Below the pieces are notes generated by a model. That model was not told the DNA's origin. It was given only the letters and a program-made list of their open reading frames with translations, and did no database searches. A stretch of 64,000 nt of DNA, from positions 1 to 64,000 of IMG/VR virus record IMGVR_UViG_3300027763_002034; one strand, written 5' to 3'. This document shows, in pieces, positions 43,523-60,756 of this stretch. Position numbers and translations under genes: made by a program. Numbering within the stretch: position 1 is the first letter of the stretch; each line of letters starts with the position of its first letter. The DNA is from an uncultured virus (IMG/VR IMGVR_UViG_3300027763_002034) (Duplodnaviria; Heunggongvirae; Uroviricota; Caudoviricetes).

Positions 43523-43560
43523 TTGACTTTTTAGTAAAGTTATATATATTTATATCACTA

Positions 43561-43657: not shown

Positions 43658-43701
43658 ATGGAATTTGGTTTTATCGTTAAACTTTCGTATATTTACTATA
43701 T

Positions 43702-43947: not shown

Positions 43948-44376
43948 ATGGATAGTGTAAACGAAGCTCAGGGCGAATTAATATTATTAAGAGGGTTACC
44001 TGGTTCTGGTAAATCAACGTTAGCTAAAATCATATTACAACTTAGAAGTACAGATGAACCTGAGGTTTTATCGGCTGATGATTTTTTTATCAACGAAAAT
44101 AGTGAATACGATTTTGATTCACAAAAAATAAAAGAAGCGCATAACTATTGTCAATTTAGATGTTCAGAAAGGATGAGACAACAAAAGGCAAGGATAGTTG
44201 TTGCAAATACTTTTACTCAAGAATGGGAAATGGACGAATATTTTAAAATGGCAGAAAGGTACAATTATCGTGTTCATACGGTGGTTGTTGAAAATAGACA
44301 TGGTAATGAAAATGTTCACGGAGTTCCCGAAGATAAACTTCAACAAATGAAGAATAGATTTCAAGTTAAACTTTAA
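43948..44376 (+). CDS. P-loop polynucleotide kinase-like protein (AAA_33/N4BP2-like)
   Basis: LRGLPGSGKST, SADDFF, AH..C, VANT, NVHGVP. Confidence 0.85.
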   Translation: MDSVNEAQGELILLRGLPGSGKSTLAKIILQLRSTDEPEVLSADDFFINENSEYDFDSQKIKEAHNYCQFRCSERMRQQKARIVVANTFTQEWEMDEYFKMAERYNYRVHTVVVENRHGNENVHGVPEDKLQQMKNRFQVKL

Positions 44377-44618
44377 TGAGTCAATTTATTTCTTCTTATG
44401 TTAAAACAATTAACCCAAAACCAAAGATGAAATTTCACGCTAACTTACATAGAAACCAATGGTTAATATATCCATTACCTTTTGTTTATTTTTATTTTGA
44501 AACATGTCAACCCGATTCTCATGTATCAATTTGGAAAAACAAAATGTGTGGAGTATATTTGTCCTTTAATTGGTTGAAACATACCTACAACATCGGATTT
44601 CACAAAACAATAAACTAA
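44376..44618 (+). CDS. Hypothetical protein
   Basis: 80-aa ORF with TAATG coupling on both sides. Confidence 0.55.
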   Translation: MSQFISSYVKTINPKPKMKFHANLHRNQWLIYPLPFVYFYFETCQPDSHVSIWKNKMCGVYLSFNWLKHTYNIGFHKTIN

Positions 44619-45691: not shown

Positions 45692-46169
45692 TAATAAATT
45701 GAGATTATATCTTGATGATGTAAGAACACCATTAGCTAAAGATTGGATAATTGCCCGTAATTATGATGAATTTGTGGCTGCAATTAAATTACACGGATTA
45801 GGTAATTTTGAAGTTATATCTTTAGATCATGATTTAGGTGAAGGTGCCATGATAGAATATTATACAAATGTAAAAAATAATTATATGTTGGATTATAACA
45901 ACATAGAAGAAAAAACTGGTATGGATTGTTGTAGATATTTGGTTGCTGAAAGTATGAATGAAAAAATACCCTTACCTCAAATTTATATTCATTCGGCAAA
46001 TCCTATTGGTAGTGCCAATATGATGGGATATATTAACAATTATTTAAAAAACTGTAGGTTACCTCAAACCTGTATAAGTGTTAAAATTGAACATACAATA
46101 GATGAACCGTTAATGTTATCCCCAGAGGCTAGAAAAGCAAAATGGGATAAATCTATGGATAACGAATAA
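45681..46169 (+). CDS. Cyclic-phosphate-processing receiver-domain protein
   Basis: LYLDDVR.P, ISLDHDLG, TG.D, IHSANP.G. Confidence 0.8.
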   Translation: MKINNKLRLYLDDVRTPLAKDWIIARNYDEFVAAIKLHGLGNFEVISLDHDLGEGAMIEYYTNVKNNYMLDYNNIEEKTGMDCCRYLVAESMNEKIPLPQIYIHSANPIGSANMMGYINNYLKNCRLPQTCISVKIEHTIDEPLMLSPEARKAKWDKSMDNE

Positions 46170-46173
46170 ATTT

Positions 46174-46204
46174 TTTGTTGTTTTATTAAAATGTTGTAAT
46201 TTTG
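46174..46204 (+). promoter_or_regulatory. Bacteroidota-type promoter
   Basis: TTTG-N19-TAATTTTG. Confidence 0.55.
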
Positions 46205-46244
46205 ATGTACGAACTAAATTAACTAACTTACTAAACACCATTTA

Positions 46245-46571
46245 ATGCGAAAAAATAAAAATGAAGAACCATTTAAGTCGTTGATAATCAAGGACAAGTA
46301 TAAAAATTACGAAGATTTTTATAGTGAGAATAAAACGTTAATTTATAAATCAATTTTAAATGTTTTTGAAGAATTTAAAACTACAAGTAAAGAAAATCTT
46401 ACTTTTTATATCTCGGCAAAAATAAAAAATGAAGAATGGGATACTGAATTTAAATTTCATAAACAAGAATCTATAATATTGAAAAGGGATTTAATTCCAC
46501 ATTTTGAAGAAATCGAGGATTATGAAACTTGTATTGAGATAAATAATTTATATAAAGAATTGACTTCTTAA
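46245..46571 (+). CDS. Hypothetical protein with C-terminal UVR-like EDYETC segment
   Basis: 108-aa ORF. Confidence 0.6.
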   Translation: MRKNKNEEPFKSLIIKDKYKNYEDFYSENKTLIYKSILNVFEEFKTTSKENLTFYISAKIKNEEWDTEFKFHKQESIILKRDLIPHFEEIEDYETCIEINNLYKELTS

Positions 46572-46593
46572 AATCTAATTAATATATTAGTAA

Positions 46594-46660
46594 AGTATCA
46601 GGAGAGAGGTACATTTATTTTTTGTCACATCCTCGAGGTTTATACTTCGGGGATTTTTTT
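46594..46660 (+). ncRNA. Candidate trans-acting antisense small RNA
   Basis: TTGACT...TATATTAG promoter-like site, 31-nt segment matching start regions of the minus-strand cluster, terminator ATCCTCGAGG-TTTATA-CTTCGGGAT-T8. Confidence 0.55.
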
Positions 46661-48252
46661 TATAATACCATTCTACTACCTATCTGAAAGTTGCTTAAAA
46701 ATACGGAATACGGTTTAGTATTACCACTTATTTTGTAATTAAACGCAAACCCAAATCTCTTACTAAGTTTATAATCAAATGCGGTTCCTAATAAGAAACC
46801 CATATGTCTATTAACTGTCGATGCCCCTGTGACACTATTCCAAGAGATAGGTGAGAACATCGTGAACACTTGAGGTGATATTGTAAGTTTTTTTGAATAG
46901 ACGTAAGGTTTGGTCCAAAATGCAATTGCAGAACTTGCCATATTATAATCAAACCCACCATTATCGTTTTTAAGAAATAAATTAATGACACCAACGTTAT
47001 AACCAAATGTTCCCTTTTTAGGTGTTGGTTTAATCCAAGTATAACCCATTAAGTTCATATAGTTACCTGCCAAATATGCAAATGCTGTTCCGTATGAGTG
47101 TATTGCGTCTAATTGTCCATCTTCGGTCATTTTCATTTTTGTAATACCTCCTGTTAATATAATAGAACTTAAGTCACTATTCACTATCAATCCACCACTA
47201 TAACTTACATCACCAGCCATAGATGATTTACTAAGTCCTAATGATATAGACGCTAAAAACTTACCTCGTTCCGTTTCTGCCGTTGTTATATCTGATGCAA
47301 GTAATGTTGGATTTGTTACTTCTTGTTTTTTCTTTTTTTCTTCTTCTTTTTTCTTTTCTTCCTCTTTCTTTTTCTCTTCCTCTTTTTTAGCTTCTTCCTT
47401 TTTTTCCTCAGTCTTTTTTTCTTCTGATTTCTTTTCTTCGGTTTTAGTTTCCTCTTTCTTTTCTTCGGTTTTAGCTTCAGTTTTCTTTTCCTCAGTTTTT
47501 TGTTCTGCGGGTTTATCCGATTTAGTTTCGGCAGGTTTAGTTTCTGTGGGTTTTGCCTCAGCAGGTTTTGCTTCCGTTGATGACGAACTACTTGATGAAG
47601 AAGATGAACCGCCACTTGCCGGAGGTGGGGATGACGAACTACTTGCAGGTGGTGGTGCCGCTGTTGGTGGGGGAGCGGCAACTACGGGTGGTGGCGGAGG
47701 AGGTGCAATGTTTATTGGTGGTGGAGTTGATGCTGCTGCGGATGCTGCCGCTCCACTTGCTGCGGATGATGCTGCCCCACTTGCCGCTCCGCTCGCTGCA
47801 GATGATGCAGCTCCACTTGCGGCTCCACTCGCCGCACTTGCCGCCGCCTTTGCGGCTGCATCTGATGCCGCTTTTGCTGCCGCGTCTGATGCAGCTTTCG
47901 CCGCGGCATCTGCGGCGGCCTTTGCGGCTGCGTCCGCCGCTGCTCTCGCCGCGGCATCTGCTGCTGCTCTTGCTGCGGCTTCCTGTGCTAATCTTATTGC
48001 GTCGTTTTGTGGACAAGGTGTTGCGAATATACTATTAACCCAAACTTGAAACGCACCACTACTCATGTCGGCTAACGTAACTATTTTAGACTTACCTCTA
48101 ATAACGGCTATTGTTTGATTTTGACCAAAGGGAATTGTTACCACGTAAACTTTATTGTCACATGGATCTATATATGTTTGTGTTATAGTACTTTGACTAA
48201 ATGACTTACTACAAAAAAATAATATTAGGAGAGAGATAATATATTTTTTCAT
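46660..48252 (-). CDS. Secreted/outer-membrane protein: signal peptide, Ala-, Pro/Ser- and Lys/Glu-rich spacer, C-terminal beta-barrel-like domain
   Basis: MKKYIISLLILFF signal; (KAAxDAAA)n; alternating-hydrophobic strands in last ~215 aa. Confidence 0.7.
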   Translation of the reverse strand: MKKYIISLLILFFCSKSFSQSTITQTYIDPCDNKVYVVTIPFGQNQTIAVIRGKSKIVTLADMSSGAFQVWVNSIFATPCPQNDAIRLAQEAAARAAADAAARAAADAAAKAAADAAAKAASDAAAKAASDAAAKAAASAASGAASGAASSAASGAASGAASSAASGAAASAAASTPPPINIAPPPPPPVVAAPPPTAAPPPASSSSSPPPASGGSSSSSSSSSSTEAKPAEAKPTETKPAETKSDKPAEQKTEEKKTEAKTEEKKEETKTEEKKSEEKKTEEKKEEAKKEEEKKKEEEKKKEEEKKKKQEVTNPTLLASDITTAETERGKFLASISLGLSKSSMAGDVSYSGGLIVNSDLSSIILTGGITKMKMTEDGQLDAIHSYGTAFAYLAGNYMNLMGYTWIKPTPKKGTFGYNVGVINLFLKNDNGGFDYNMASSAIAFWTKPYVYSKKLTISPQVFTMFSPISWNSVTGASTVNRHMGFLLGTAFDYKLSKRFGFAFNYKISGNTKPYSVFLSNFQIGSRMVL

Positions 48253-49100
48253 TATTTGTTATTCAAACCAATTGCTATTTGTGTGTATCCTCTTATTGGG
48301 TCAGCATCTACTTTTAATGTAACAAATTTAAAATCTTTTATAATACCAACTTTAAATGTTGTAAATGATGAATTTGATTTTGGAAACGATATACCACCAA
48401 TATCATCTTTACCTTGCCATCTAATAACTTCATTACCGAATCCTATCATACCGTGTATTCCTATTTTACCAATTCTTTTACCACCACCAACATAGAAAGT
48501 TGATTCTTTTTTCCAATCGTTTTTACTTAATGGGAAATCAACATTGTTAATTTGACCATATGGATAATAGCTGTTTTGGTCTATTGCGTAAGTCATTACA
48601 TAGTCCATAATAAAATATCCTTTATTACCACCAATCAATCCCCAGTAAGCAATTTGTTTATTATTTGTATGTCCTATACCCGCCGAAAATAATACAGGTG
48701 TTGAAGTGACCGTATCTCTTTTACCATTCTCATATATTCTAACTACACTTCTTTGTCTCCATCCATAATCATCATACCATATATAAGGATAAGGTTGATA
48801 CCATCCCCATACACCATATTGTAAACCATACGGATTGTATGTTGTAGGTCTATATCTTCTTGTTAAAGGTTGTCCCTGAAAATTATCACCTGGTCTTATT
48901 GGTGCAGTTTGTGTTCTCCATTGACTCACATTATTTTGTTGTTGTGGTACAGATGGTTGAACTCTTGGTGCTGATTGTGTTGTTTGTGGTGAAACACTTC
49001 CACCTGTTTGTCTCCAAGAACTAACTTGAGCATTCAACATTATTGTGCAGAATAATATTAATATTAATATTAAACCTGTAACTAATAAAACCTTTTTCAT
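48252..49100 (-). CDS. Secreted protein with probable small beta-barrel
   Basis: Signal peptide ending LNA/Q, Gln/Pro/Tyr-rich N-part, amphipathic strands. Confidence 0.65.
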   Translation of the reverse strand: MKKVLLVTGLILILILFCTIMLNAQVSSWRQTGGSVSPQTTQSAPRVQPSVPQQQNNVSQWRTQTAPIRPGDNFQGQPLTRRYRPTTYNPYGLQYGVWGWYQPYPYIWYDDYGWRQRSVVRIYENGKRDTVTSTPVLFSAGIGHTNNKQIAYWGLIGGNKGYFIMDYVMTYAIDQNSYYPYGQINNVDFPLSKNDWKKESTFYVGGGKRIGKIGIHGMIGFGNEVIRWQGKDDIGGISFPKSNSSFTTFKVGIIKDFKFVTLKVDADPIRGYTQIAIGLNNK

Positions 49101-49276
49101 ACTGTTTCAGTTAAAATTGTGGTTAGTAAATAACCGGTTATTATTGGGGCTGGTGAAAATATTAAAAAAAAGAACAACAACCTCCAAACTAATGGGTCAA
49201 CATTGGTACGGTGACTTAAACCACTACACACACCAAAGAAAACTTTATCGTCGTGAACTCTCTTAAACTTTTTCAT
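49097..49276 (-). CDS. pspC: PspC-domain membrane protein (59 aa, below ORF-track cutoff)
   Basis: MKKFKRVHDDKVFFGVCSGLSHRTNVDPLVWRLLFFFLIFSPAPIITGYLLTTILTETV. Confidence 0.8.
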   Translation of the reverse strand: MKKFKRVHDDKVFFGVCSGLSHRTNVDPLVWRLLFFFLIFSPAPIITGYLLTTILTETV

Positions 49277-49290
49277 ATAATATAAATATT

Positions 49291-49316
49291 AAAAAAGGGG
49301 TTATAAAACCCCTTTT
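49291..49316 (-). terminator. Terminator-like hairpin at end of feoA
   Basis: AAAAGGGGTT-ATAA-AACCCCTTTT. Confidence 0.6.
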
Positions 49317-49534
49317 AAACATATTCTATCTAATTCTTCTTGTCTTAAACCTATGGTTGAATCTATTTGTCCTCCCTCGGATAAAATATTTACCAAATAA
49401 AGACCAAATTTTTTATCACTTATCTCTATTTCTTGTCCATGTATAAACCCCATATCCATTAATCTTAATCTCATACATGGTACACAATTTTCACAAGGAT
49501 TATTTTGTGGAACGTCCACTACTTCGTATTTCAT
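49301..49534 (-). CDS. feoA: FeoA-like SH3-fold protein with CxxCxxC
   Basis: RLRLMDMGFIHGQEIEI ... IGLRQEE..RI. Confidence 0.7.
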   Translation of the reverse strand: MKYEVVDVPQNNPCENCVPCMRLRLMDMGFIHGQEIEISDKKFGLYLVNILSEGGQIDSTIGLRQEELDRICLKGVL

Positions 49535-50253
49535 TATTTCGTGAATATACCTTTTTTAATCATCCTATCCAAGATATTAGCACATGCAATATCTAAAGCT
49601 TTCTTTGTTGCAATACTAATTGTTGATTGATTGAATTTAATTGGGTCTATCGTAGCGTCTGATAAAAGGGTTAACTCTCTTTTTGTTGTTGCCTCACCTA
49701 ATCCTGACCCACCAAACAAGACTCCTGTCTCTGCATCTGTAAATCTAACTTGGAGACCTATACGAGTTACCATATTGTCTTTAATACCGTCTTTTAGGTT
49801 GATAGTTTCATCTTCTGACACCGAGTAGTCATAACACTCAATAGTTACAAAATACTTCGCCAAATTGATTTTACCACGACCATCTAATTTATTCTCTGAA
49901 ATACCTGCCTGAGATGCTTTAAATTGTAGAAGCATCCTATTTTTTATTTCCGTTTTATCTTCGGTAAATTTGAACCTGTTTAGGTTTTCAAGGTATTCCA
50001 TTGATATATTTGCAACCCCTAAACCAACTCTTTTTTCTTTCAATTCAGGATACATCTCATACATTTCATCAGAAATTCCAGCCTTTAATATTTGAATTGG
50101 AATTTGGGGACCATCGTAATCCATATACGCAGAAATATCTTTCTTTTTCTCAAAATCCGCTTTATAATCCTCTGTCTTAGTCTTACCTATTGTTTGACTA
50201 CTTGCAACAAGACTTACTAAACAAACGCTTAATAATATAAATAATTTTTTCAT
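49534..50253 (-). CDS. CsgG/HfaB-like protein with signal peptide
   Basis: GLGVANI..EYL...NRF..E, GKI..AKY.V...YDY, IGLQVRF.DAETG. Confidence 0.7.
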   Translation of the reverse strand: MKKLFILLSVCLVSLVASSQTIGKTKTEDYKADFEKKKDISAYMDYDGPQIPIQILKAGISDEMYEMYPELKEKRVGLGVANISMEYLENLNRFKFTEDKTEIKNRMLLQFKASQAGISENKLDGRGKINLAKYFVTIECYDYSVSEDETINLKDGIKDNMVTRIGLQVRFTDAETGVLFGGSGLGEATTKRELTLLSDATIDPIKFNQSTISIATKKALDIACANILDRMIKKGIFTK

Positions 50254-50262
50254 ATATTTTTT

Positions 50263-51006
50263 TTAAGGGTTCCATTTATTTAATGAACTAATATATCCAT
50301 CGGTCATGTGGTCTTTAATGTTCTTACCCGTTACCATAGATTTCAAATAATTCCAAGCACGTTCCCAATCAATCATGAACTTCTTAATATTACCCTCACT
50401 ATCGATACGTAACATCTGATTGACGTGATAGTATCCAATATATGGAGAATGTGTTACCACGTCGTTATTATGAACGATTCTTAATGACTCAATTGGTGAT
50501 TTATCAAAGTTCTGTTTGAATACTTTATTTCCAACTCTTGGACTACCGATAGTGCAACATATAATCTTATTTGATTTATAAATTGAATAAATCTCATATG
50601 CACACAAAGTAGAAACCGCAGCTCCCAAACTGTGTCCACAAACAACAATATTATCAACTTCACCTTCTCCACCTAATGTGGATAATGCTTTTTCAAATGA
50701 TTTATAAGTTTCGTCTTTAACAGCGTCCCAAGATGATTTAAAACCAATATGGACTTTCTCACCTTCTTGAATAAATGGAACTTTGTCAATTGACGCGTCG
50801 TTTTGGAAATCCTTTTTAGAAGAACTTCCTCTCCAAACGATATAGATGGATTTGTCTTTTGTTGCAACAAATCCTTGTGTGTCTGTTTTTTTATCGTCAA
50901 TCCATTTAATTAATTTTAATCTTTGTGCTTTAAAATCAATGTCTTTTTGTTCTGAATATACTTTGTCAGTTAAACCAACATTATATAGTATTTCGTTTTT
51001 TGTCAT
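50263..51006 (-). CDS. Class 3 lipase
   Basis: WRGS, VHIGF, GHSLG, GSPRVGN, DVV, terminal DH. Confidence 0.9.
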   Translation of the reverse strand: MTKNEILYNVGLTDKVYSEQKDIDFKAQRLKLIKWIDDKKTDTQGFVATKDKSIYIVWRGSSSKKDFQNDASIDKVPFIQEGEKVHIGFKSSWDAVKDETYKSFEKALSTLGGEGEVDNIVVCGHSLGAAVSTLCAYEIYSIYKSNKIICCTIGSPRVGNKVFKQNFDKSPIESLRIVHNNDVVTHSPYIGYYHVNQMLRIDSEGNIKKFMIDWERAWNYLKSMVTGKNIKDHMTDGYISSLNKWNP

Positions 51007-52076
51007 TTTGTTTTTGTTTTAGATTGATCACCCTTCTTTAAAAATATATCAAATATTGTTTTAGGACAATATTCTACAAGTAATATTAAACCCTTCCTCA
51101 ATGTGGAGTTTTTTACGACGTGATTTAAAATTTCCTTAATAACCTCTTTAATGGCGAAATTTTTAGTGTCAAAATATGTTCCATCAAAATATCTTGGACT
51201 TGTTCCCTCACCACCTGGTGAACCGTGATGAGCACCTATAGAAGTGCGCCAATAGTCAGCGTGATTTTGCCATTCAGGAATTGAAACTAATTCAGGTGAA
51301 TCAAAAAATAAGTTCCACGATAATACATTACCTTTTTGTAACATATTACCCGTACCTAAATTAAAAAGGTTTAAAAAGTATTGATTAAACTTATCTAATT
51401 TCTCATCGTTTGTTGGCACCATTCTTCCTATTTCCACATTGATATGTCCTGTACTATATGCTTCTTCCTTTATAGCAAAATCAGGATTCTTAAATCTTGG
51501 TGATAAACCCTTTCCAAGTTGGAATATAGGTTCTTTAGGATTTCCTGGTAGATGTGTTAAAACACGAATAGCATTATCTTTGTCGATAGGATATTTACGA
51601 GAACTATATTTTAATAATGGCCAAATTGCTCTTAATAGACCACCTTGATTTTCACCTGGTGTTAACCAAATTTTTCCCTCAACCATCATATCTGCCGCAA
51701 TTTCCTTTGTGTCTTCATTAACCCATCCTCTTTGTCCTGTAACAGTTACTTCCACATTGATACAAATTTCATCCCCAATCCACATCCCTTGTTGAGGACA
51801 TATTATGGAATAAATCCTACCTTCATTGGTGTATCCTATTCTAGAAATATAAGGAGCAAATTGTACATAACAACGCTTTGGGTCCTTTTCTCCATTTAGG
51901 GTATTCCAACTAAACATTGGCCATTTAACACCCCATTGTCTTTGTAGTAAATTAATGTTATCCATATTACCCAACATAGGTAATGAAGTTAAATCCGTAG
52001 TAGGATATAACATTTTCTTTTGTTTTTCAGATGGAAAGCCACCTTGCCATCCCGTAGGAATTTGTTCTTCTATCAT
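51003..52076 (-). CDS. Hypothetical protein
   Basis: 357-aa ORF overlapping lipase start. Confidence 0.65.
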   Translation of the reverse strand: MIEEQIPTGWQGGFPSEKQKKMLYPTTDLTSLPMLGNMDNINLLQRQWGVKWPMFSWNTLNGEKDPKRCYVQFAPYISRIGYTNEGRIYSIICPQQGMWIGDEICINVEVTVTGQRGWVNEDTKEIAADMMVEGKIWLTPGENQGGLLRAIWPLLKYSSRKYPIDKDNAIRVLTHLPGNPKEPIFQLGKGLSPRFKNPDFAIKEEAYSTGHINVEIGRMVPTNDEKLDKFNQYFLNLFNLGTGNMLQKGNVLSWNLFFDSPELVSIPEWQNHADYWRTSIGAHHGSPGGEGTSPRYFDGTYFDTKNFAIKEVIKEILNHVVKNSTLRKGLILLVEYCPKTIFDIFLKKGDQSKTKTK

Positions 52077-52095
52077 ATTGTATTTTGTTTTATAT

Positions 52096-52362
52096 TTATT
52101 TTTTATTTATTAATTCTTCAACATACTTATCCCTTTGTTCTTGAAGATATTTGGTTCTCTCAAGTAATCTTGTTCTTTCGTCGTCGGTTAATTTTAAAAC
52201 TAATGTTTCCTTCTCATCTACCATTTTCTTGTATTCATTAATTTGATTACTGAAATTGACGTTTTGATAATACAATATACCTACCAATAAAATGATGGTA
52301 AATGATTGTTCTTTTAATTTAGTAAAAAATACGTCTGTCCCGTTTTGTGATTGTCCCGCCAT
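52096..52362 (-). CDS. Single-TM protein with coiled coil
   Basis: SFTIILLVGILYY then heptad region. Confidence 0.6.
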   Translation of the reverse strand: MAGQSQNGTDVFFTKLKEQSFTIILLVGILYYQNVNFSNQINEYKKMVDEKETLVLKLTDDERTRLLERTKYLQEQRDKYVEELINKK

Positions 52363-52385
52363 AAAATACTTTAATATAAATACAC

Positions 52386-52411
52386 AAAAAAGGGAGTTTT
52401 TAACTCCCTTT
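52386..52411 (-). terminator. Intrinsic terminator
   Basis: AAAGGGAGTT-TTT-AACTCCCTTT with A-run. Confidence 0.6.
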
Positions 52412-52414
52412 CAT

Positions 52415-52663
52415 TTAACCTTCCGTTTCGTCTTTCTTTTTGTGAGAGAATTTATCCAAAGTATCAGCACCCATTCCAATTCCCGTGATTAACATTACCG
52501 CATTCACCAATTCAGGTGATGGGGCAAAATCCGCGTGAGAGAACGAATTTAACATCATTGTTATACATAGGAATAATGCACCTATCATTGCTATTACCGG
52601 TTTTACCGATATTGATCCTCTTTCGTCTTTGAAAATTTCAACTACCCATTCTTTAAAGTTCAT
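52415..52663 (-). CDS. Two-TM small membrane protein (holin-like)
   Basis: Two hydrophobic helices, charged tail. Confidence 0.6.
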   Translation of the reverse strand: MNFKEWVVEIFKDERGSISVKPVIAMIGALFLCITMMLNSFSHADFAPSPELVNAVMLITGIGMGADTLDKFSHKKKDETEG

Positions 52664-52688
52664 AATTATTATTTTTTGTCTTGTTTAT

Positions 52689-53261
52689 TTATCCCTCAAC
52701 GTCTTCACGTAAAAGTCCACATTTTTGACACTCCTCGTGTCCATCATGGTCAGAATCTCCCCACTCATGTACACATTGTCTGTGAGCGTGATGTTCAAAT
52801 TCCAATTTTTCCATTTCTTGTTCATGTTCTTGTTGGTCTTTTTCCAACTCAAAATTTTGTTGGTTTTCAACTACAGCCAATTCTCTCGCAGCTTGAGCTC
52901 CTTGAACAAATGCATCAGGAATAATCGGTGTAAATGGTTTGTTACTTTCCTTTATGTCATTAACACTACCCAATGATACACCATCTTCCTCATCCATTTT
53001 TTGAACTAACATTTTGTCCTTATCAGTATCACTAAACCAGTAATCTATGATTTTACCATAACTACCAATAAATGCACCTAACAATAATAAAAGTAATTCC
53101 TTCCATTCAGCCGCCATTGGGGTTTTCAATGCGATTGCTGTAAACATACCTGCAATTATCATCATAAAACCTCCCAACACCATTGCAGATATGAACCATC
53201 TGCGTTGCATCATTGAGTTTAATAATTCTTTAAATCCACTTGGCGGTTGTTGATTACTCAT
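52689..53261 (-). CDS. Two-TM membrane protein with acidic/His-Cys C-terminus
   Basis: LLLLLGAF...IIDYWF; C-terminal C.HEW..C.KCG. Confidence 0.65.
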   Translation of the reverse strand: MSNQQPPSGFKELLNSMMQRRWFISAMVLGGFMMIIAGMFTAIALKTPMAAEWKELLLLLLGAFIGSYGKIIDYWFSDTDKDKMLVQKMDEEDGVSLGSVNDIKESNKPFTPIIPDAFVQGAQAARELAVVENQQNFELEKDQQEHEQEMEKLEFEHHAHRQCVHEWGDSDHDGHEECQKCGLLREDVEG

Positions 53262-53349
53262 CTTTTTTTAATTTAAAACTATATCTTATTAAAAACGTTA
53301 ATAATCCAATAAAGAATATTACCGTTCCTATTTGATAGTATATTACCAT
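53254..53349 (-). CDS. 31-aa single-TM micropeptide (below ORF-track cutoff)
   Basis: MVIYYQIGTVIFFIGLLTFLIRYSFKLKKDE; overlaps both neighbours and fills the gap exactly. Confidence 0.55.
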   Translation of the reverse strand: MVIYYQIGTVIFFIGLLTFLIRYSFKLKKDE

Positions 53350-53654
53350 TTAGGTGCTTCTTCTTTAAACTCATCACCTTCTTTCTTCTTAGGTTTTGCA
53401 ACTGGTTGAGCTGGTTTACCGTCACCACCTTTATTGATGATTATAGTTTTACCTCCACCCGCTTGCTGAGTTTGAGTGTTTTGAATGTTGATTACAGGTG
53501 CCGCTTGTTGAACGGGAGCCTCTTTTTCGTCACCACCTGTTAATTTTGTTGTAAACCAACCACCAACACCTAATGTGATAGTGCTTACTAATCCGATAAT
53601 AATGTTCTTAATTGAACCACCGGTACTTTCTGATTTTTCTTGTTCTTCTGCCAT
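53343..53654 (-). CDS. Single-TM protein
   Basis: IIIGLVSTITLGVGGWF; PVINI motif. Confidence 0.65.
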   Translation of the reverse strand: MAEEQEKSESTGGSIKNIIIGLVSTITLGVGGWFTTKLTGGDEKEAPVQQAAPVINIQNTQTQQAGGGKTIIINKGGDGKPAQPVAKPKKKEGDEFKEEAPKW

Positions 53655-53686
53655 AATTTTGTGTTTTTTGTCTTTATATAATTATC

Positions 53687-54052
53687 TTAAATTTTATTAA
53701 AGTCCGTTATTGTTAACATATTACCTGCGGCGTCATATAAAGCGATTCTATACGCTGAGGACGGTAAAGCGGATGTATACACCCTTAAAATGTTATCACC
53801 AACCTTAACTTCACTTGTTGATTTTGATACGATTCTATTAGAAATATCAAATATTTTAACGGTTACGGTTTGATTTACATCACTTTTTATGTTCATAGCA
53901 ACCTCACTTGTTACAAATGGAGTTTCTAATTTTAACCCCACTGAACTTGAGATTTTAAGGTTGTCACTAATCACCTGTGGCATTGGGGTATCGTTTTTTC
54001 TACACCCAACCAATAAGATTAGTCCAAAGAGTACGAGAGATACTTTTTTCAT
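53687..54052 (-). CDS. Lipoprotein with T9SS-CTD/FlgD-like Ig domain
   Basis: LVGC lipobox; VTVKIFDI...ALPSSAY.I.L. Confidence 0.7.
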   Translation of the reverse strand: MKKVSLVLFGLILLVGCRKNDTPMPQVISDNLKISSSVGLKLETPFVTSEVAMNIKSDVNQTVTVKIFDISNRIVSKSTSEVKVGDNILRVYTSALPSSAYRIALYDAAGNMLTITDFNKI

Positions 54053-54064
54053 TTTTTGTCTTGT

Positions 54065-54412
54065 TTAATTTATAATTATTCTTGTTTTACCTATCTGTTG
54101 ATTATTTTGGTCTTTTAATACGACACTTAGGTTTTTTGTCGGTAAGGTATTAGTAAATATTTTAAGAGAGTTTAATCCTACTTTACCAGTAAATCTTTCC
54201 CTTGATACTACTTGGTTTTGAGCCGTATCAATCATTGTTAAAGTGTATACTCCTCCTGTAGTTAAATTAATATTAATAACATCCCCGTTTTTAACCGTGT
54301 TTTCGGACACACTAAAAAATTCTTTGTTATTGATTGACACAACGGGCGCCGAAGGTTCTATTTTTTTACACCCTACTAAAGTCAATACTAATATGAATAA
54401 TATCTTTTTCAT
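54065..54412 (-). CDS. Lipoprotein, paralogue of 53687..54052
   Basis: LVGC lipobox; VG.N.L..T..LP pattern shared. Confidence 0.7.
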   Translation of the reverse strand: MKKILFILVLTLVGCKKIEPSAPVVSINNKEFFSVSENTVKNGDVININLTTGGVYTLTMIDTAQNQVVSRERFTGKVGLNSLKIFTNTLPTKNLSVVLKDQNNQQIGKTRIIIN

Positions 54413-55305
54413 TAAAATTGAAAGTTTGTTCCTATCATAAACATTATTGGGTTACTCTTTTTATAACCAACTGACTCACTTAGTTTATCCCAAGTTTTAT
54501 TAAATCTGATATTAGTATTCAAAATAAATCTTTTAGTTATTTTCCAATCCATAGATGTACCATAATATAAGTCCAAATTGAAATCGTCTAAGTACGCTAA
54601 ATCGGATGACGTTCCATCTTTGAAATCTTTATAGATATCACTCATAGCAAATACTTGTGGTGAGATATTAACTAACTTTGTTTTGAATGTATACGTATAC
54701 ATCATCATACCTTTATAAGTTATTTGACTTGACGATGGAACCATTGGATAAATTAAATCTACAAAATTACCGTTTGCACCAACCGTATATTTTCCTTCCC
54801 ACGTACCTTCATATGACCCCCAAAATGATTTTGACGCAATTAAACTATAACCAAATGTTCCAAACTTTTTAGTTCTAAATACATCTATGAATGATAAGGT
54901 AATATCTTTTTGGAAATTAAAATCGGTTGAATAGAATGATTGTAATGTAGTAGTTCTTGTATTCGTATTTCTACTAAAACCATATCCTACTCCATAATAA
55001 TTCCATATCGGATTTATTGATGATGTGAATGAGTGACCCCATTTACCATTATTTGATGTTTTACTATATCCTAAATTTAAGGTAGTAGATACTTGCTTTC
55101 CAATTATACCTACTGAAAGGTTTGAAGATGAAAGAACATCTTTTGAAAAATCAATATACGACTCTAATATACCTAAATTATTCCAATCACCACTTTCTCC
55201 AAATAATTCTTTTGGTGATAGTTGTAATGTATCAGGTTTTACGATTTGTGCGTTTGCAACAAATCCAATTAAAACTAACGATATAATTAATAATATTTTT
55301 TTCAC
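54412..55305 (-). CDS. Outer-membrane beta-barrel protein
   Basis: Signal peptide ANA/Q, amphipathic strands, C-terminal GTNFQF BAM-type signal. Confidence 0.75.
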   Translation of the reverse strand: MKKILLIISLVLIGFVANAQIVKPDTLQLSPKELFGESGDWNNLGILESYIDFSKDVLSSSNLSVGIIGKQVSTTLNLGYSKTSNNGKWGHSFTSSINPIWNYYGVGYGFSRNTNTRTTTLQSFYSTDFNFQKDITLSFIDVFRTKKFGTFGYSLIASKSFWGSYEGTWEGKYTVGANGNFVDLIYPMVPSSSQITYKGMMMYTYTFKTKLVNISPQVFAMSDIYKDFKDGTSSDLAYLDDFNLDLYYGTSMDWKITKRFILNTNIRFNKTWDKLSESVGYKKSNPIMFMIGTNFQF

Positions 55306-55310
55306 TTATA

Positions 55311-55595
55311 TTATAAATTTAATAGTTTATTTTTCATCTCTTTGTAAAAAGCCGATTCAACATTCCACATCATAAGGCTATCTTTTCGTTTATTTTCACC
55401 ATTACATAACCATTCTTCACTTGCAATATCATCTATTTGGTATGCCACTTCTATAAATTCTTCTTCTTCCGTATATTGCCAATTATTAGAAGGGTTAGGA
55501 TGAATCCAACTAAAACACTTAACATTTACGATTTTATATTTTCCACCTTTAATGATAAAATTTTTCATTTCATCATATCCAAAATTAATTTCCAT
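55311..55595 (-). CDS. Hypothetical protein
   Basis: 94-aa ORF. Confidence 0.55.
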   Translation of the reverse strand: MEINFGYDEMKNFIIKGGKYKIVNVKCFSWIHPNPSNNWQYTEEEEFIEVAYQIDDIASEEWLCNGENKRKDSLMMWNVESAFYKEMKNKLLNL

Positions 55596-55600
55596 AATTT

Positions 55601-58198
55601 TTAATTTATTTTTATTTTTAATGTTTTTCCATCTTTATTAACTGCGTCCGTTGAACCTATTGAAATTAAACCCAATATGTTATCCAATTTTGTGTTTGAC
55701 GAAAATGAAATCTTATATGTTGTTGTCTTATCTAAACTTGTACTACCATCACTCACCAAAGAACCTAAATTAATGTAATTACCCTTGTTGGTTGCATAGT
55801 TGGTAGGTGAACCTTTTGTGGTAAATTGTATTCCTTTAAAATTTAAGACCGAATTATCATAGTTTAATTGAAATTGAGTTCCTACCACGTTTTGTTGTAA
55901 TGGGTCAAATGTGATGTAAGCATAAACACTATCACCAATTACTTCTGTTATTATAGATGCGTTAATATCGGTTGATATGGAGGTACTCATTGATGTTCTA
56001 ACCGACATTGTCGTAATATTATTTGATGGTGGTGTTGCTGAATGTGATAAGTTTACATCACCTTTCCAACTAACCGCTAAATCATAGTTATAACTTATTA
56101 CATCATCTAATAAACTGAATGAGTATGTTTTTCCTTTATATGATGTGAATGAACTCCACGTTGACTTACCTATTAAATTATAGATTGAGTCCGGTATTAC
56201 TTTTATTGTATTGTCTAATGTGTAACTACTAACTAAGTTTTGAGTACCTGTTAGATTTTGTAATAATTTGAAACAATCTGCTTCGTTAAAATATCCATCA
56301 TCATTTACATCTGCATTTATATACTGAATACCATATGTAAATTCATTTCCACTTTGATTTCCAAATATACCACCATTTGCCAATTCCTTAAATGCCAAAT
56401 AAACATCCGATACCGTTACAACACTATTATATAAAGTTCTCAATTGAACACTATCATATTCATTCAATTCCATTCTATGTTGTTTGTATGTACCTAATTG
56501 TGTAAATCCAAATTCCGCTTTTACCCCATAAAATCCATTTGCACTTCTTAAACTTGATGTATATGATGAACCCGTATAATTAAATTGCGTCGGTGTATAA
56601 ACATAATATTCAGCCCAACCATTTGGGTCATATGAATTAAATGTTACTGCACCATTCCATAAATCAAATAATTTTAATTTAGTTACATTACTCGGTGTTA
56701 TATTTGTTCCTATAAATTCTCTTGCATCAACACCAATTCTATATCTACCATTTGATGCATCATAATCATAAATTACACACCATTCAACTTGACCAGGAGA
56801 TGTAGTTGCTTTATATGACATTGGTGCCGATACAAATTGATAACTTAAATCCCAACCACCCCAATCAGATGTTGTTATACCATTACGGGTTGATGCGGTA
56901 TAATTATTTTTTCCTTCAACTACTTTAATATAAATTTCTTTTGTTTGTCCAATTGTTAAAACTCCAGCATGTACAGCCATGGCAGGAATATAAGAGTCGT
57001 TTGTGTAAATATCAGTTCCCCATCCACCACCACTTGCACCGGTTACGGTCATTTTATATATTTTACCGATATCTGCAGTAGTGAATTGTGTCATATCACT
57101 TACTCCATTTAAAGGTATTGCAACTGACGTGAATATTTGTGCAGTATCTATTTGGTTTGAAAGATATACTTTACCCAAACCACTTAATGATTTATATCCA
57201 TCTGCTGCAGTCCAATTAGATGTGTTATCGTTTCTTTTGAATATTTGAGCGGTGAATTTAGTTTTATCAATTGAACTATTAAACTTAAATCCAAATAGTG
57301 CTTTTATAGTTTGTCCGTTTGAGTGAGCAACACTATTAGTATAAAATTCAGTAAATGTTGCATCATCAGGATTACTCCAAGTCCCATATTCAATTACATA
57401 AGCACAACTAAAGTTATTTGGTAAATCATTCCATTGAGTGCCACCACCCCATTTAGTTACTGCGTAATCTTCGTTACCACTATTGTTTGGTTCACCACCT
57501 GCCCAGTTATTATATTGACCTGGAATGTTTCCGTTTGTTTGTCCATTGTTAATTTTAATCAGAGTTCCTTTTTCAGGTCCAGCATCTATTGTCCATCTAG
57601 CTTCACTTACTTCATCGGTTAATGCAAACCAAATATTTGATTGAGGTACATTATTATAAATAAATGCATCTTCATCTGCAGAAGTAATTGTTACCAAATA
57701 TCCTGTCTGTCCTTTGAATGTTGTTTGCAATGCTGCGGCTCTTGCTACTGTGTAATATGCTCCAGTTGATACGGGTTTGTAAAAGTGTCCGTTTACACCA
57801 TTAAAATAATATCCCGTTGGGTTTACAGTTGCAGCCACTGAAATATTAATATCTCCCGTTATTGTTCCTGTGTTTATCTTTAATGTTGCTAATGCTGTAT
57901 TGATACTAGCCATTGTTCCAGTTACCACCAAACGAGTTTTATTACCACTTAAAGTAAATCCACTTGCAGCAGTTAAACCTGTTGTTGTTCCTAAAGAAAA
58001 TGTTGTACCGGATGGAGGATTAACTAAACTGATTGAAGTTAGTAAAGTTGCTGTTGTACTAAATCCAGTTAATTCAAATCCACTAGCGTCTTGTCCTGTG
58101 GTATTCACAGTAAATGATTTAGGGTCTGGTGCCGTTACTGACTGACCAAACCCTAAAAATGATATAAATAAAAATAATACTATTAATAGTTTCTTCAT
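55601..58198 (-). CDS. Secreted multidomain adhesin-like protein: C-type lectin, LCCL, dockerin, cohesin
   Basis: YNNW..GEPNN..EDY..WNDL; WGTDIYTNDS....AVHAG; ADVNDDGYFNEAD; GTQFQLNYD. Confidence 0.75.
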   Translation of the reverse strand: MKKLLIVLFLFISFLGFGQSVTAPDPKSFTVNTTGQDASGFELTGFSTTATLLTSISLVNPPSGTTFSLGTTTGLTAASGFTLSGNKTRLVVTGTMASINTALATLKINTGTITGDINISVAATVNPTGYYFNGVNGHFYKPVSTGAYYTVARAAALQTTFKGQTGYLVTITSADEDAFIYNNVPQSNIWFALTDEVSEARWTIDAGPEKGTLIKINNGQTNGNIPGQYNNWAGGEPNNSGNEDYAVTKWGGGTQWNDLPNNFSCAYVIEYGTWSNPDDATFTEFYTNSVAHSNGQTIKALFGFKFNSSIDKTKFTAQIFKRNDNTSNWTAADGYKSLSGLGKVYLSNQIDTAQIFTSVAIPLNGVSDMTQFTTADIGKIYKMTVTGASGGGWGTDIYTNDSYIPAMAVHAGVLTIGQTKEIYIKVVEGKNNYTASTRNGITTSDWGGWDLSYQFVSAPMSYKATTSPGQVEWCVIYDYDASNGRYRIGVDAREFIGTNITPSNVTKLKLFDLWNGAVTFNSYDPNGWAEYYVYTPTQFNYTGSSYTSSLRSANGFYGVKAEFGFTQLGTYKQHRMELNEYDSVQLRTLYNSVVTVSDVYLAFKELANGGIFGNQSGNEFTYGIQYINADVNDDGYFNEADCFKLLQNLTGTQNLVSSYTLDNTIKVIPDSIYNLIGKSTWSSFTSYKGKTYSFSLLDDVISYNYDLAVSWKGDVNLSHSATPPSNNITTMSVRTSMSTSISTDINASIITEVIGDSVYAYITFDPLQQNVVGTQFQLNYDNSVLNFKGIQFTTKGSPTNYATNKGNYINLGSLVSDGSTSLDKTTTYKISFSSNTKLDNILGLISIGSTDAVNKDGKTLKIKIN

Positions 58199-58201
58199 AA
58201 A

Positions 58202-59845
58202 TTATTCAACAATCAAATTAATCTTGTTTCCGTTTCCATCAACCGCGTCAGCTAAAACTGTATAGAATAAACCTGCGGTATTTGTTATGGTTTCTTTTGG
58301 TATAAAAGTTAATTTATATGGTGTTCCTATTTTAATTCTTGCTGTTTTTGTTTGATCCATAGAACCAAATGTTAATCTACCATCTCCGTTTGTTGAGAAG
58401 TTAGTTACACTTGGACCCGCATCAAATGAGATATTATCAAATGTTAATTTTGTATTGTCGTATTGTAAGATTACTTCTAATCCCGCCAATCCATCTTTTG
58501 TTAATGTTCCTGTTAATACTACTTTACCATTAACTATTGTAGAATTTAATCCTAATGTTGCCTTTTCTGATGTTGGTGTATATGCCATTGATTGAACTGC
58601 AAATGATTTAATTGTTGTACCATCTTTTATTGAATTAAAGTATGTACCAGCTGCAATTCTACTTGCAATCTCAGTTGGGTCAGATGAATGAGACCAATCC
58701 AAATCTCCACCCCAAGCATAAACCATATCTACCGCTTGATTTGAAGATGTTACTTTTGTTTTATAAGTAGGAACACCATCTAACCAACTTTGATTTAATA
58801 ATCCACTAAACCATTTGTATAATCCACTATTTGTACTTAATGGAACCCATGCCTTTTCTTTTACATCAATACCCATCACATATGCAAACATATAATATGA
58901 ATCACTCTCACTAAATGTAGTTTTATCTTTTGTAATTTGAGCTATATTCTTTTGTAATGTTGGTCTTGTAAAATATGTTGGAGTACCTGTTAAATCTACT
59001 TGTGAAATACCTAAAAATGCTTTATATGCGTCCGATACTGTGATGATGTTATTCATAAACGACTTCCCTGTTGCTCCATACATCCATAATGCTAAACTAT
59101 CACCTACTTTAACTCCCGATGTGAATGTTGCCTCACCACTTGCGTCCAATACTTTAGTCGCAATTGGTGTTACCGTAAAATCAATAGTACCATCCGTTTT
59201 TATTGGAAATAACGCAACACTATGTGCTGTAATATCGTATCCTGTTGGGAATAATACCCTTACTTTGAATTGAGATGTGTTACCCGTTACATTTGATAAA
59301 GACATTGTGCCTGGATCAGTTGTAATTGGTGTGATATATGCACTCGCAGCGTCAATTGAATATGATAAGTCCAATTTATGAATGTTTGTGTATTCACCTA
59401 AATCTTTAATTACATATTTTTGAGTTGCTATATCTCCGTTGATTGATGCATCCGTTCTTTGAACAGTTAATTGACCTGCGTTCCAATCTGAATTAGTTGC
59501 GTATCCCCAAGGTGTCGCACCATATTGAGCATATAAACTTGTTGCGGTAATACTATTTGCAGTACTTGCGGTAAACTTATAAGATGACCAACTTGTATAG
59601 AATGTTTGAACTGATGTTCCTTGTGAGAACGTTGTTGAGACATATGCAAGTGCTTTGTTATTATAGTTATATCTTAACCAAAAATAACGAGGAGTTGTTG
59701 TGCCTCTAGCAACCGTATACTTTACCGAAACCGTATCACCAACCTTTAACCCTGTTGTTGGTGTTACAGATTGGTTAACCGTTAATTGCGCATTTGTTGC
59801 TATGGATATTACTAGTATTCCAAGTAGCGTTAATAATTTTTTCAT
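58202..59845 (-). CDS. Secreted cohesin-containing protein with degenerate dockerin
   Basis: Signal peptide; LRYNYNNKAL and GLEVILQYDNTKLTF cohesin-like strands; TVSDAY.AF and WGGDLDWSHS shared with upstream-paralogous 865-aa protein. Confidence 0.7.
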   Translation of the reverse strand: MKKLLTLLGILVISIATNAQLTVNQSVTPTTGLKVGDTVSVKYTVARGTTTPRYFWLRYNYNNKALAYVSTTFSQGTSVQTFYTSWSSYKFTASTANSITATSLYAQYGATPWGYATNSDWNAGQLTVQRTDASINGDIATQKYVIKDLGEYTNIHKLDLSYSIDAASAYITPITTDPGTMSLSNVTGNTSQFKVRVLFPTGYDITAHSVALFPIKTDGTIDFTVTPIATKVLDASGEATFTSGVKVGDSLALWMYGATGKSFMNNIITVSDAYKAFLGISQVDLTGTPTYFTRPTLQKNIAQITKDKTTFSESDSYYMFAYVMGIDVKEKAWVPLSTNSGLYKWFSGLLNQSWLDGVPTYKTKVTSSNQAVDMVYAWGGDLDWSHSSDPTEIASRIAAGTYFNSIKDGTTIKSFAVQSMAYTPTSEKATLGLNSTIVNGKVVLTGTLTKDGLAGLEVILQYDNTKLTFDNISFDAGPSVTNFSTNGDGRLTFGSMDQTKTARIKIGTPYKLTFIPKETITNTAGLFYTVLADAVDGNGNKINLIVE

Positions 59846-59847
59846 AG

Positions 59848-60495
59848 TTACTTTTCAAATAATTTGGTTATTAGTTTATCTGCCGACTTTTTCAAAGCAT
59901 TACTTAAAGATGTTTGATTGAATTGACCACCTTCATCCACGATTAATGTTGACATGGATATTTCTGAAGATGATTCTTCTACCATTATTTCTTTTTCTTT
60001 CTTACCATCCTTATATAAAATTCCTTTCATACGAATGACAACTTCTTCTTCATTTTTGTGAAAAACCGAAATGTTCTTTTTTGTTGTAAGAACGTCTAAA
60101 TAAACGATTTGAACTTTTAATTTGTACGGAGCCGACGGTGTCAAATCATACCCCTTCTCTTGTAAGAATTCTTCCAATGTGTTTTTAACACCGAAAGCTA
60201 AATTTCTATTACCTGCCAATTTACCCATCTTAACTTCATTGGTAACACTTTCAACCCAAATATGGTCTTCAGCATTGTATAATATATTTTCAGGTGAGTT
60301 CTTGAACGTACCGTCAATCCTCCACATAATCCAATTTGACACATCTCTTGTTATTTCTCTTTGACCTGAAAATTCCAAAACCGCCATTGATATCGCAAAC
60401 AAAAGTGCGAATATAATCCATAATAAAAACAAGGATAAAAATACCTGTGCTAATTTTTCTTTAATGTTAACCGATAATGTTCTTAATTTTTCCAT
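59848..60495 (-). CDS. Membrane-anchored protein with CsgG/LptE-like alpha-beta domain
   Basis: N-terminal TM; FGVKNTLEEFLQ, FNQTSLSNALKK resembling the CsgG-like paralogue (FNQSTISIATKK). Confidence 0.55.
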   Translation of the reverse strand: MEKLRTLSVNIKEKLAQVFLSLFLLWIIFALLFAISMAVLEFSGQREITRDVSNWIMWRIDGTFKNSPENILYNAEDHIWVESVTNEVKMGKLAGNRNLAFGVKNTLEEFLQEKGYDLTPSAPYKLKVQIVYLDVLTTKKNISVFHKNEEEVVIRMKGILYKDGKKEKEIMVEESSSEISMSTLIVDEGGQFNQTSLSNALKKSADKLITKLFEK

Positions 60496-60518
60496 AATGT
60501 TCCGAGTTTTTAATTCCC

Positions 60519-60548
60519 TCAGAACCACATATTATAATAATATGTCAT
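60519..60548 (-). CDS. Putative 9-aa leader peptide MTYYYNMWF
   Basis: uORF between TATTTAT motif (60584-90) and first gene of the cluster. Confidence 0.35.
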   Translation of the reverse strand: MTYYYNMWF

Positions 60549-60578
60549 ATCTTGAGAGAGATACGTTTATTTTTTGTC
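60548..60578. repeat. 31-bp direct repeat of 46596..46626 (27/31 identical)
   Basis: TATCTTGAGAGAGATACGTTTATTTTTTGTC vs TATCAGGAGAGAGGTACATTTATTTTTTGTC. Confidence 0.85.
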
Positions 60579-60681
60579 TGTTTATAAATACTTTACTTTA
60601 ATGGACTGACAATAGTCATTTATTATTTTTTAAAATAATTTCGTATATTCATATATATTTATTATCTTTGTAAAACAATAA

Positions 60682-60754: not shown

Positions 60755-60756
60755 CA

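What the first reader, a model, noticed from the sequence alone, without database searches (positions are those of the whole stretch)
46594..46660. Candidate multi-target antisense sRNA aimed at the start regions of the envelope cluster
Seen: the + strand segment TATCAGGAGAGAGGTACATTTATTTTTTGTCA sits between a promoter-like site (TTGACT...TATATTAG, 46560-90) and a U8 terminator. Near-copies occur on the + strand (so the RNA would be complementary to the minus-strand mRNA) precisely at initiation regions in the cluster: 60548-78 (27/31, leader uORF start), 48223-49 (TATTAGGAGAGAGATA.ATATATTTTTT, first codons of the 530-aa gene), 54035-60 (GAGAGATAC..ATTTTTTGTC spanning ATG), 52669-80 (TTATTTTTTGTC), 53664-72 (TTTTTTGTC), 50996-51005 (TTTTTTGTCA at lipase ATG). 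The recurring G-for-A difference gives a G-U pair. Inference: a host-promoter (early) sRNA that silences translation of a late-promoter operon at several cistrons, i.e. a phage riboregulatory switch.
Basis: partly seen in the sequence, partly recalled or inferred. Interest (0 to 1): 0.85.

Follow-up and report, generated by a model that had tools for sequence, protein, structure and literature searches.

The report
Phage antisense RNA targeting envelope operon
A large uncultured lake phage carries a conserved gene for a small RNA of about 66 bases that mirrors the first bases of the message for its own block of exported-protein genes, and the two sequences change together across related phages, so it is very probably a built-in antisense regulator, although no one has yet seen the RNA.

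Summary
Real, and mostly as described. 46595-46661 (+) is a conserved unit: promoter, 5' hairpin, U-rich arm and terminator. It was found on 133 merged contigs of T4-like phages (about 310-335 kb where near-complete) and has no Rfam match. The family-wide target is the first ~30 nt of the late-promoter envelope operon (60548-60579). This was the top hit in 25 of 26 contigs long enough to show it. RNA and target co-vary, indels included (23 pairs; 0 of 20,000 permutations as good). Two internal starts (54035-61, 48222-50) are real but lineage-specific: they use a rare Leu codon only in phages whose RNA has the matching loop. The three short matches are not separable from background. The G-U argument is inconclusive (14 vs 8). 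'Host early promoter' is unsupported: 0 of 79 promoters fit the Bacteroidota consensus, and relatives encode their own sigma factors. Most likely a trans-encoded antisense RNA that dampens or delays this operon; direction and timing are inferred, and no RNA run was listed. This scan found the same family before in three other genomes; I found no paper on it.

The parts
46560..46588 (+). sigma70-type promoter of the sRNA (TTGACT, 17 nt, TATATT); the -35 box overlaps the last codons of the 108-aa gene
   Evidence: 17-nt spacer in 76 of 79 distinct promoters, spacer sequence variable; absent where the RNA is absent
46595..46661 (+). predicted sRNA gene, about 66 nt (start inferred 6-7 nt after the -10 box)
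   Evidence: no Rfam family at the gathering score
46595..46612 (+). 5' hairpin SL1 (5-bp stem, purine-rich loop AGGAGAGA); weak, loop differs between lineages
   Evidence: a 5' stem in most of 50 variants; median 10% of shuffles fold as well
46613..46628 (+). single-stranded U-rich arm, complementary to the first bases of the late message (candidate toehold)
46629..46661 (+). intrinsic terminator (11-bp stem, T8); the T-run overlaps the stop codon of the convergent 530-aa gene
   Evidence: z -4.6; 92 distinct regions, median -16.6 kcal/mol, 84 with at least 4 T; 5 stem pairs changed on both sides
60583..60590 (-). late-promoter motif TATTTATA at the head of the envelope operon
   Evidence: the same 8-mer precedes portal (33036), terminase (34867), protease (29731) and the gene upstream of the capsid gene (28969); late status inferred from these genes
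60548..60579 (-). primary target: first ~30 nt of the operon message, 53-84 nt upstream of the AUG at 60495
   Evidence: net -26.9 kcal/mol
60499..60546 (-). two predicted leader hairpins; the second ends 3 nt before the AUG of the 215-aa gene
   Evidence: prediction only
54035..54061 (-). secondary target covering the AUG (54052) of the 121-aa gene
   Evidence: net -17.5
48222..48250 (-). secondary target in codons 1-10 of the 530-aa gene
   Evidence: net -14.7
52669..52680 (-). weak arm-only match upstream of the 82-aa gene; possible, unproven
   Evidence: net -11.6 vs best background -10.9
53664..53672 (-). short match upstream of the 103-aa gene; not distinguishable from background
   Evidence: net -7.2
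50996..51005 (-). short match at the lipase start; not distinguishable from background
   Evidence: net -9.6
46660..60495 (-). 17-gene cluster, many with N-terminal hydrophobic signal-like segments (Lipoprotein_16-like, cohesin, LCCL, lipase, FeoA hits); the regulated operon
   Evidence: internal late motifs and terminators exist, so it is probably not one transcript
46245..46571 (+). 108-aa gene of unknown family that precedes the sRNA gene in relatives; preceded by a Bacteroidota-type promoter motif at 46175

Best explanation
A phage-encoded, trans-acting antisense sRNA that represses the phage's own late envelope-protein operon. SHOWN in sequence: the gene anatomy, its conservation, the complementarity, co-variation with the head site, and co-occurrence with the internal sites. 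INFERRED: (1) it is transcribed from its own sigma70-type promoter, possibly by the phage's ~270-aa sigma factor, before or alongside late transcription; (2) its U-rich arm and purine loop capture the first ~30 nt of the late message; (3) where the first gene is leaderless the duplex covers the AUG and blocks initiation; where there is a 72-97-nt leader, as here, it masks the single-stranded A-rich 5' end upstream of an often hairpin-flanked start (standby-type block) and/or invites double-strand cleavage; (4) in this lineage it also occludes the starts of the 121-aa and 530-aa genes. Net effect: a threshold that delays or dampens exported-protein synthesis relative to other late genes.
For: Top duplex hit directly after the late motif at the cluster head in 25 of 26 contigs with at least 12 kb downstream; the exception has no cluster in view. 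23 distinct pairs: cognate -33.9 vs non-cognate -26.0 kcal/mol, 0 of 20,000 permutations, also with one pair per 15 RNA classes. Matching indels and substitutions in L053, L267, L239/L347, L154, L222. A diverged 21-mer hit 16 viral loci: 11 RNA-type, 5 right after the late motif, none elsewhere. In 7 of 23 pairs the leader is 2-4 nt and the duplex covers the AUG. The CUCUC-type motif is in the first 12 codons of the 530-aa gene in 28 of 37 phages with a GGAGAG-loop RNA and 0 of 46 others; CTC makes up 63 of 192 Leu codons there vs 2 of 196, against a 1.7% background. In large genomes the start+TCTCTC motif occurs only in the cluster or the RNA gene itself, and is absent from two RNA-less genomes. 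29 operon heads from RNA-less or unknown contigs reach at best -23 with any variant.
Against: No transcript or reporter evidence. G-U asymmetry is not significant, and this genome's leader keeps an A-C mismatch. Internal sites are absent from lineages with other loops (0 of 25 for the 530-aa gene) and from 9 of 37 with the GGAGAG loop. In leadered lineages the duplex ends about 40-65 nt upstream of the AUG, so repression there is indirect, and the start-flanking hairpin is not predicted in all of them. The strict promoter motif is not enriched genome-wide (11 vs 9 control in G006), so its sigma and timing are unknown. Rows are related, so counts overstate independent events (quick tree only).
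Confidence: 0.7

Rival explanations
1. Same RNA-RNA pairing, but the effect on leadered messages is stabilising or activating (5'-end protection or refolding) rather than repressive.
For: In 16 of 23 pairs the site lies well upstream of the AUG; in L108 and L154 pairing refolds the leader.
Against: In 7 of 23 pairs and at both internal sites the duplex covers the start codon or first codons. In the window's leader the start-flanking hairpin is unchanged by pairing.
Confidence: 0.12
2. The copies are binding sites for one DNA- or RNA-binding protein (operators at two promoters and two starts), with no RNA-RNA pairing.
For: Both main copies lie just downstream of a promoter; G-U asymmetry is not significant.
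Against: The copies are non-palindromic, 25-30 nt long and co-vary by lineage-specific indels and several substitutions. One copy fills a promoter-terminator unit without an ORF. The shared sequence changes substantially between lineages while staying matched within each genome.
Confidence: 0.07
3. The 31-bp direct repeats are recombination sites or a duplication scar bracketing a mobile 14-kb module.
For: The two best copies flank the cluster in direct orientation, and cluster gene content varies between relatives.
Against: 0 hybrid junctions (promoter + core + late motif) among 225 merged loci. Extra genes lie between RNA gene and cluster in L119, L128, L154, L222. The second copy sits on the start codon of a different first gene in 7 pairs. 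Internal copies in signal-peptide codons are unexplained.
Confidence: 0.03
4. Only a terminator for the upstream genes; the matches reflect the generic A-rich start regions of Bacteroidota-type translation.
For: A-rich starts are typical of this phylum (PMC6847099, passages); this explains the three short matches.
Against: It cannot explain the 27/31 match, the cognate specificity, the conserved promoter or the rare-codon signal.
Confidence: 0.03

Closest known systems
c4 antisense RNA of phages P1/P7 (Rfam C4; as described in PMC5320573, passages read)
   Same: Short phage-encoded RNA that pairs through loops with non-overlapping sites on the phage's own mRNA, occludes initiation, and has phage-specific RNA/target variants.
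   Different: No Rfam match; two hairpins rather than three stem-loops; own promoter and intrinsic terminator rather than RNase P processing; target is a late exported-protein operon of a T4-like phage, not an antirepressor.
IstR-1/tisB standby-site repression (PMC6690012, search listing and start of abstract; the role of IstR-1 is recalled)
   Same: Antisense RNA binds a single-stranded 5' region far upstream of a structured start site.
   Different: Chromosomal toxin-antitoxin pair; here a polycistronic phage operon with extra internal sites. Standby use is untested.
Envelope-protein sRNAs MicA/RybB/MicC of enterobacteria (recalled, not tested)
   Same: Short 5' pairing region plus terminator; targets start regions or early codons of several exported proteins.
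   Different: Those use short Hfq-dependent seeds on host mRNAs; here pairing is about 30 bp, phage-on-phage.
Cis-antisense phage RNAs sar, OOP, aQ, PAK_P4as15, STnc6030 (PMC12197685, parts 1-2 of 6 read)
   Same: Phage RNA repressing phage mRNA, in some cases late or lysis genes.
   Different: Those are described as antisense RNAs of their target gene; this one lies 8-17 kb from its main target and pairs imperfectly with up to three sites.

Membership tests
Trans-encoded base-pairing sRNA | Own promoter and terminator around a short non-coding unit | tested here: met
   (by conservation; the detector required TT and TA..T positions, but one search shows them unconditioned)
Trans-encoded base-pairing sRNA | Imperfect complementarity to mRNA encoded elsewhere, beyond chance | tested here: met
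Trans-encoded base-pairing sRNA | Co-variation of RNA and target | tested here: met
   rows not phylogenetically independent
Trans-encoded base-pairing sRNA | G-U-tolerant asymmetry of mismatches | tested here: inconclusive
   14 vs 8 at the head site (p=0.14); 86 vs 47 at loosely chosen internal starts is confounded by base composition
Trans-encoded base-pairing sRNA | Discrete transcript and measurable effect on the target | not testable with these tools
   Needs RNA from infected cells and reporters
C4 antisense RNA (Rfam) | Match to the covariance model; three stem-loops | tested here: not met
   no match; fold has two hairpins
C4 antisense RNA (Rfam) | RNase P processing from a precursor; antirepressor target | tested here: not met
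   Targets are exported-protein genes; processing itself not testable
Cis-encoded antisense RNA | Transcribed opposite its target, perfect complement | tested here: not met
   Target 13.9 kb away, 27/31
Bacteroidota housekeeping-sigma promoter | TAnnTTTG -7 box | tested here: not met
   0 of 79 distinct promoters; neighbouring genes do carry it
Standby-site repression (IstR-1 type) | Single-stranded 5' landing site upstream of a structured start, needed for translation | tested here: inconclusive
   Predicted for the window's leader but variable among 16 leaders; function not testable

The most novel reading that the evidence does not exclude
The RNA/leader pairs form allele-specific compatibility groups (at least 15 RNA classes, each fitting its own leader better than the typical foreign one). 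A resident phage's RNA would then silence the envelope module of a co-infecting close relative but not of a diverged one. The RNA would be both a timer that uncouples one late operon from the rest of the late programme and an RNA-level kin-recognition device in T4-like jumbo phages, strong enough to have reshaped signal-peptide codons and residues.
Probability: 0.12. Interest if true: 0.88.

Novelty: new variant of a known kind. Interest (0 to 1): 0.7.

Why it matters
A 2010 review states that no small trans-acting regulatory RNA had been functionally characterised from T4 and hoped T4-related genomes would supply candidates (PMC3014915, passage). A 2024 study lists ncRNA candidates of virulent phages as awaiting functional study (PMC10914365, passages). 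This family comes with its target identified by co-variation, natural compensatory alleles and RNA-less sister lineages as controls, so it can be tested with reporters in a cultured Flavobacterium without culturing the phage. It would show RNA-level control of one late operon in a large phage, antisense control of leaderless and SD-less starts, and selection on signal-peptide codons by a small RNA. It also suggests that the timing or dose of the unexplained envelope module matters to the phage.

Tried and rejected
Expression: no RNA holder was listed for 45700-49100; this is no evidence either way, and no reads could be laid. Rfam: only tRNAs at the gathering score, nothing credible by E-value. 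Annotated phages: no significant DNA match. The 239-aa protein matches Flavobacterium phage immuto_2-6A at 55%, but model R1 found nothing credible in the 34 kb around that cluster (best E 0.84; the rest of that 160-kb genome was not searched). G-U asymmetry: not significant. Conserved uORF: not seen. Genome-wide enrichment of the promoter motif: none. Excision junctions: none. Net-binding values were a scripting error (constant 20.6) and were redone; the other results stand. Out-of-sample leader checks for L366 and L368 failed because their records are not held; L184 and L223 show no 215-aa homolog on their fragments. The careful tree did not finish; only a quick tree is available. A note about an inverted repeat at 43.6-43.9 kb was a misreading. 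Literature searches returned no paper on this RNA; the library lacks most subscription papers, and no supplements were read (the table of 38 undescribed phage sRNAs in PMC12197685 was not seen).

Full report
Setting. The window is the first 64 kb of a 71.5-kb virus contig with T4-like portal, terminase, prohead protease and gp23 genes. Near-complete relatives are 311-336 kb. A Bacteroidota host is inferred: TTG-N19-21-TAnnTTTG motifs precede several genes (consensus from PMC6847099, passages), and a cluster protein matches a Flavobacterium phage at 55%. The finding lies between a 108-aa plus-strand gene and the convergent end of a 17-gene minus-strand cluster (46660-60495), many of whose proteins begin with signal-like segments.

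1. Observation. The 27/31 copy at 60548-78 exceeds all 100 shuffled genomes (maximum 24). A duplex scan of both strands ranks 60548-79, 54035-61 and 48222-50 first to third among non-self hits (-37.5, -26.7, -26.0; background from -25.4). With intramolecular structure counted, net binding is -26.9, -17.5 and -14.7 kcal/mol, against a best of -10.9 and a median of -5.3 for 40 other starts. The three short matches give -11.6, -9.6 and -7.2, and the two shorter motifs are no more frequent than in shuffles. Without its two best members the cluster's starts are no better than others (p=0.57). GACAAAAA is nevertheless found in 4 of 17 cluster starts and 0 of 62 others, so weak arm-only binding is not excluded.

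2. It is a conserved gene-like unit. Of 160 loci fetched with the 108-aa protein (the best 80 of 170 and of 119 relatives), 125 were anchored by motif. They gave 82 distinct downstream sequences, of which 80 show promoter and core, with the terminator wherever the contig reaches it. The other 35 loci were read by hand: 12 distinct sequences carry the unit and 14 lack it, which with L270 and L302 makes 16 RNA-less sequences. In total 133 merged contigs carry it, with 49 distinct cores. The promoter has a 17-nt spacer in 76 of 79 distinct versions with a variable spacer sequence. The terminator is kept in 92 distinct versions, with compensatory changes in 5 stem pairs of a 24-row alignment. RNA-less lineages lose the TTGAC box as well, so its conservation is not simply coding. 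A weak 5' hairpin with a purine-rich loop recurs in most of 50 variants, followed by a U-rich arm. Rfam has no match.

3. The main target is the 5' end of a late message. The motif TATTTATA precedes portal, terminase, protease and the gene upstream of the capsid gene, and lies 3 nt before the target. In 25 of 26 merged contigs with at least 12 kb downstream, the best duplex lies directly after this motif at the head of the cluster; the exception shows no cluster. For 23 distinct RNA/head pairs (26 collected, kept if below -25 kcal/mol and over 8 kb away, L154 added by hand), cognate duplexes average -33.9 and non-cognate -26.0. No permutation out of 20,000 matched this, nor did any with one pair per 15 RNA classes. 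The own RNA ranks first for 12 of 23 targets and never below fifth. Examples: a 5-U arm with a 5-A leader (L053); a two-base insertion in both (L267); a single A/U swap in both (L239 vs L347); three matched substitutions (L154); a rebuilt 3' arm (L222). A diverged 21-mer searched over the viral collection hit only RNA-type loci (11) and late-leader loci (5); a second, looser pattern gave 4 RNA-type and 6 unrelated hits. In 7 of 23 pairs the first gene has a 2-4-nt leader and the duplex covers its AUG; in 16 the leader is 72-97 nt. The 29 heads from RNA-less or undetermined contigs reach at best -23 with the best of all variants.

4. Internal targets are real but lineage-specific. After dropping L329 (detector miss) and L133 (distant), the CUCUC-type motif is in the first 12 codons of the 530-aa gene in 28 of 37 contigs whose RNA has GGAGAG. 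It is in 0 of 25 with other loops, 0 of 9 RNA-less and 0 of 12 undetermined contigs. For the 121-aa gene the counts are 18 of 26, 0 of 17 and 0 of 18. CTC is 1.7% of 935 Leu codons in 25 window genes, but 63 of 192 in these starts, against 2 of 196 in the other groups. Loop length tracks target length (11, 2, 0, 5; Fisher p=0.0025), and in L251, L170 and L246 a G in the RNA faces a Ser-to-Pro codon change. Homologs 83-91% identical in the barrel domain, with no RNA gene beside them, start with ordinary codons. In three large RNA-bearing genomes the start+TCTCTC pattern occurs only in the cluster or the RNA gene, and in two without the RNA beside the cluster not at all. All these counts are inflated by kinship; the quick tree on the 239-aa protein spreads the groups over several clades but is poorly resolved.

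5. What is not supported. A G-U-blind alignment gives 14 G-U-type and 8 A-C-type changes at the head site (p=0.14). Part of the G/A variation fits the RNA's own 5' stem, and the leader's mismatches fit a mirror hairpin with a CUCUC loop predicted in 6 of 16 leaders. That suggests loop-loop initiation in this lineage, a reading also raised in earlier scan note e1-6010967. The promoter never has the host -7 box (0 of 79). Five large relatives encode a ~270-aa sigma70-family protein and four a second, divergent one, so a phage sigma is as plausible as the host's. The strict motif is not enriched genome-wide; timing is open.

6. Mechanism. Best reading (0.70): a trans-encoded antisense RNA that captures the 5' end of the envelope-operon message and represses it. 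It would do so by covering the AUG of leaderless heads, by masking the A-rich 5' landing region or triggering cleavage in leadered heads, and in this lineage by also occluding two internal starts. Anatomy, complementarity and co-variation are shown; transcription, pairing in vivo, direction and timing are inferred. Rivals: activation or stabilisation (0.12), protein operators (0.07), recombination repeats (0.03; no hybrid junction among 225 merged loci), terminator plus chance (0.03).

7. Comparison and novelty. It works like c4 of P1/P7 (PMC5320573, passages) and like start-blocking envelope sRNAs (recalled), but fails the C4 membership tests and is not cis-encoded. Six literature searches returned no description. 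A T4 review notes that no trans-acting small RNA had been characterised there as of 2010 (PMC3014915, passage). This scan reported the same family in three other genomes. My tests were computed independently and agree; they add the rare-codon and RNA-less controls, the leaderless heads and the promoter class. Verdict: new variant of a known kind, interest 0.70.

Noticed in passing
window 43556-43658 (+): A second, even more conserved ~100-nt non-coding unit: late motif TATTTATA at 43547, two hairpins with compensatory-looking changes, and a terminator. 92 distinct homologous stretches among fetched loci, including lineages that lack the antisense RNA. No Rfam match near a gathering score, no earlier scan note, no convincing antisense target in this genome. 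A candidate late structured RNA that deserves its own study.
   Followed up: partly
L371, L373, L374 (G006, G051, G039) and L372: Relatives encode a 266-285-aa sigma70-family factor and a divergent ~235-aa one; candidates for the TTGAC-17-TAnAnT and TATTTATA promoters.
   Followed up: partly
window 59848-60495 (-); G052, G053, G054, G055, G067, G068: The 215-aa head protein is split in several relatives into an N-terminal ~75-aa part and a separate C-terminal part; in several of these the C-terminal gene is the leaderless head of the operon.
   Followed up: partly
window 43703-43893 (+): Small 63-aa lipoprotein-like ORF below the ORF cut-off, just after the second RNA.
   Followed up: no
window 49281-88, 50236-43, 52375-82, 57655-62, 58163-70 (-); terminators 52412-52388 and 49316-49293 (-): Further late motifs and two terminators inside the cluster, so the 530-aa gene may be on a different transcript from the head target.
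   Followed up: no
window ~27711-27719 (-); G055:84900, G044:183870, G055:190701: Arm-only matches (GACAAAA) upstream of the capsid gene and after other late motifs; possibly chance.
   Followed up: no
L184/L264, L223: The RNA gene persists where the cluster is not adjacent on the contig fragment, which would fit action in trans; the targets were not in view.
   Followed up: partly
window 43948-46169 (+): AAA_33 kinase-like gene, T4-type RNA ligase and cyclic-phosphate receiver domain: a likely RNA-repair set between the two RNA genes.
   Followed up: no
window 60682-61627 (+): Four tRNA genes (Thr, Asn, Met, Glu) diverge from the operon head, with further GC-rich spacers that may hide other RNAs.
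   Followed up: no
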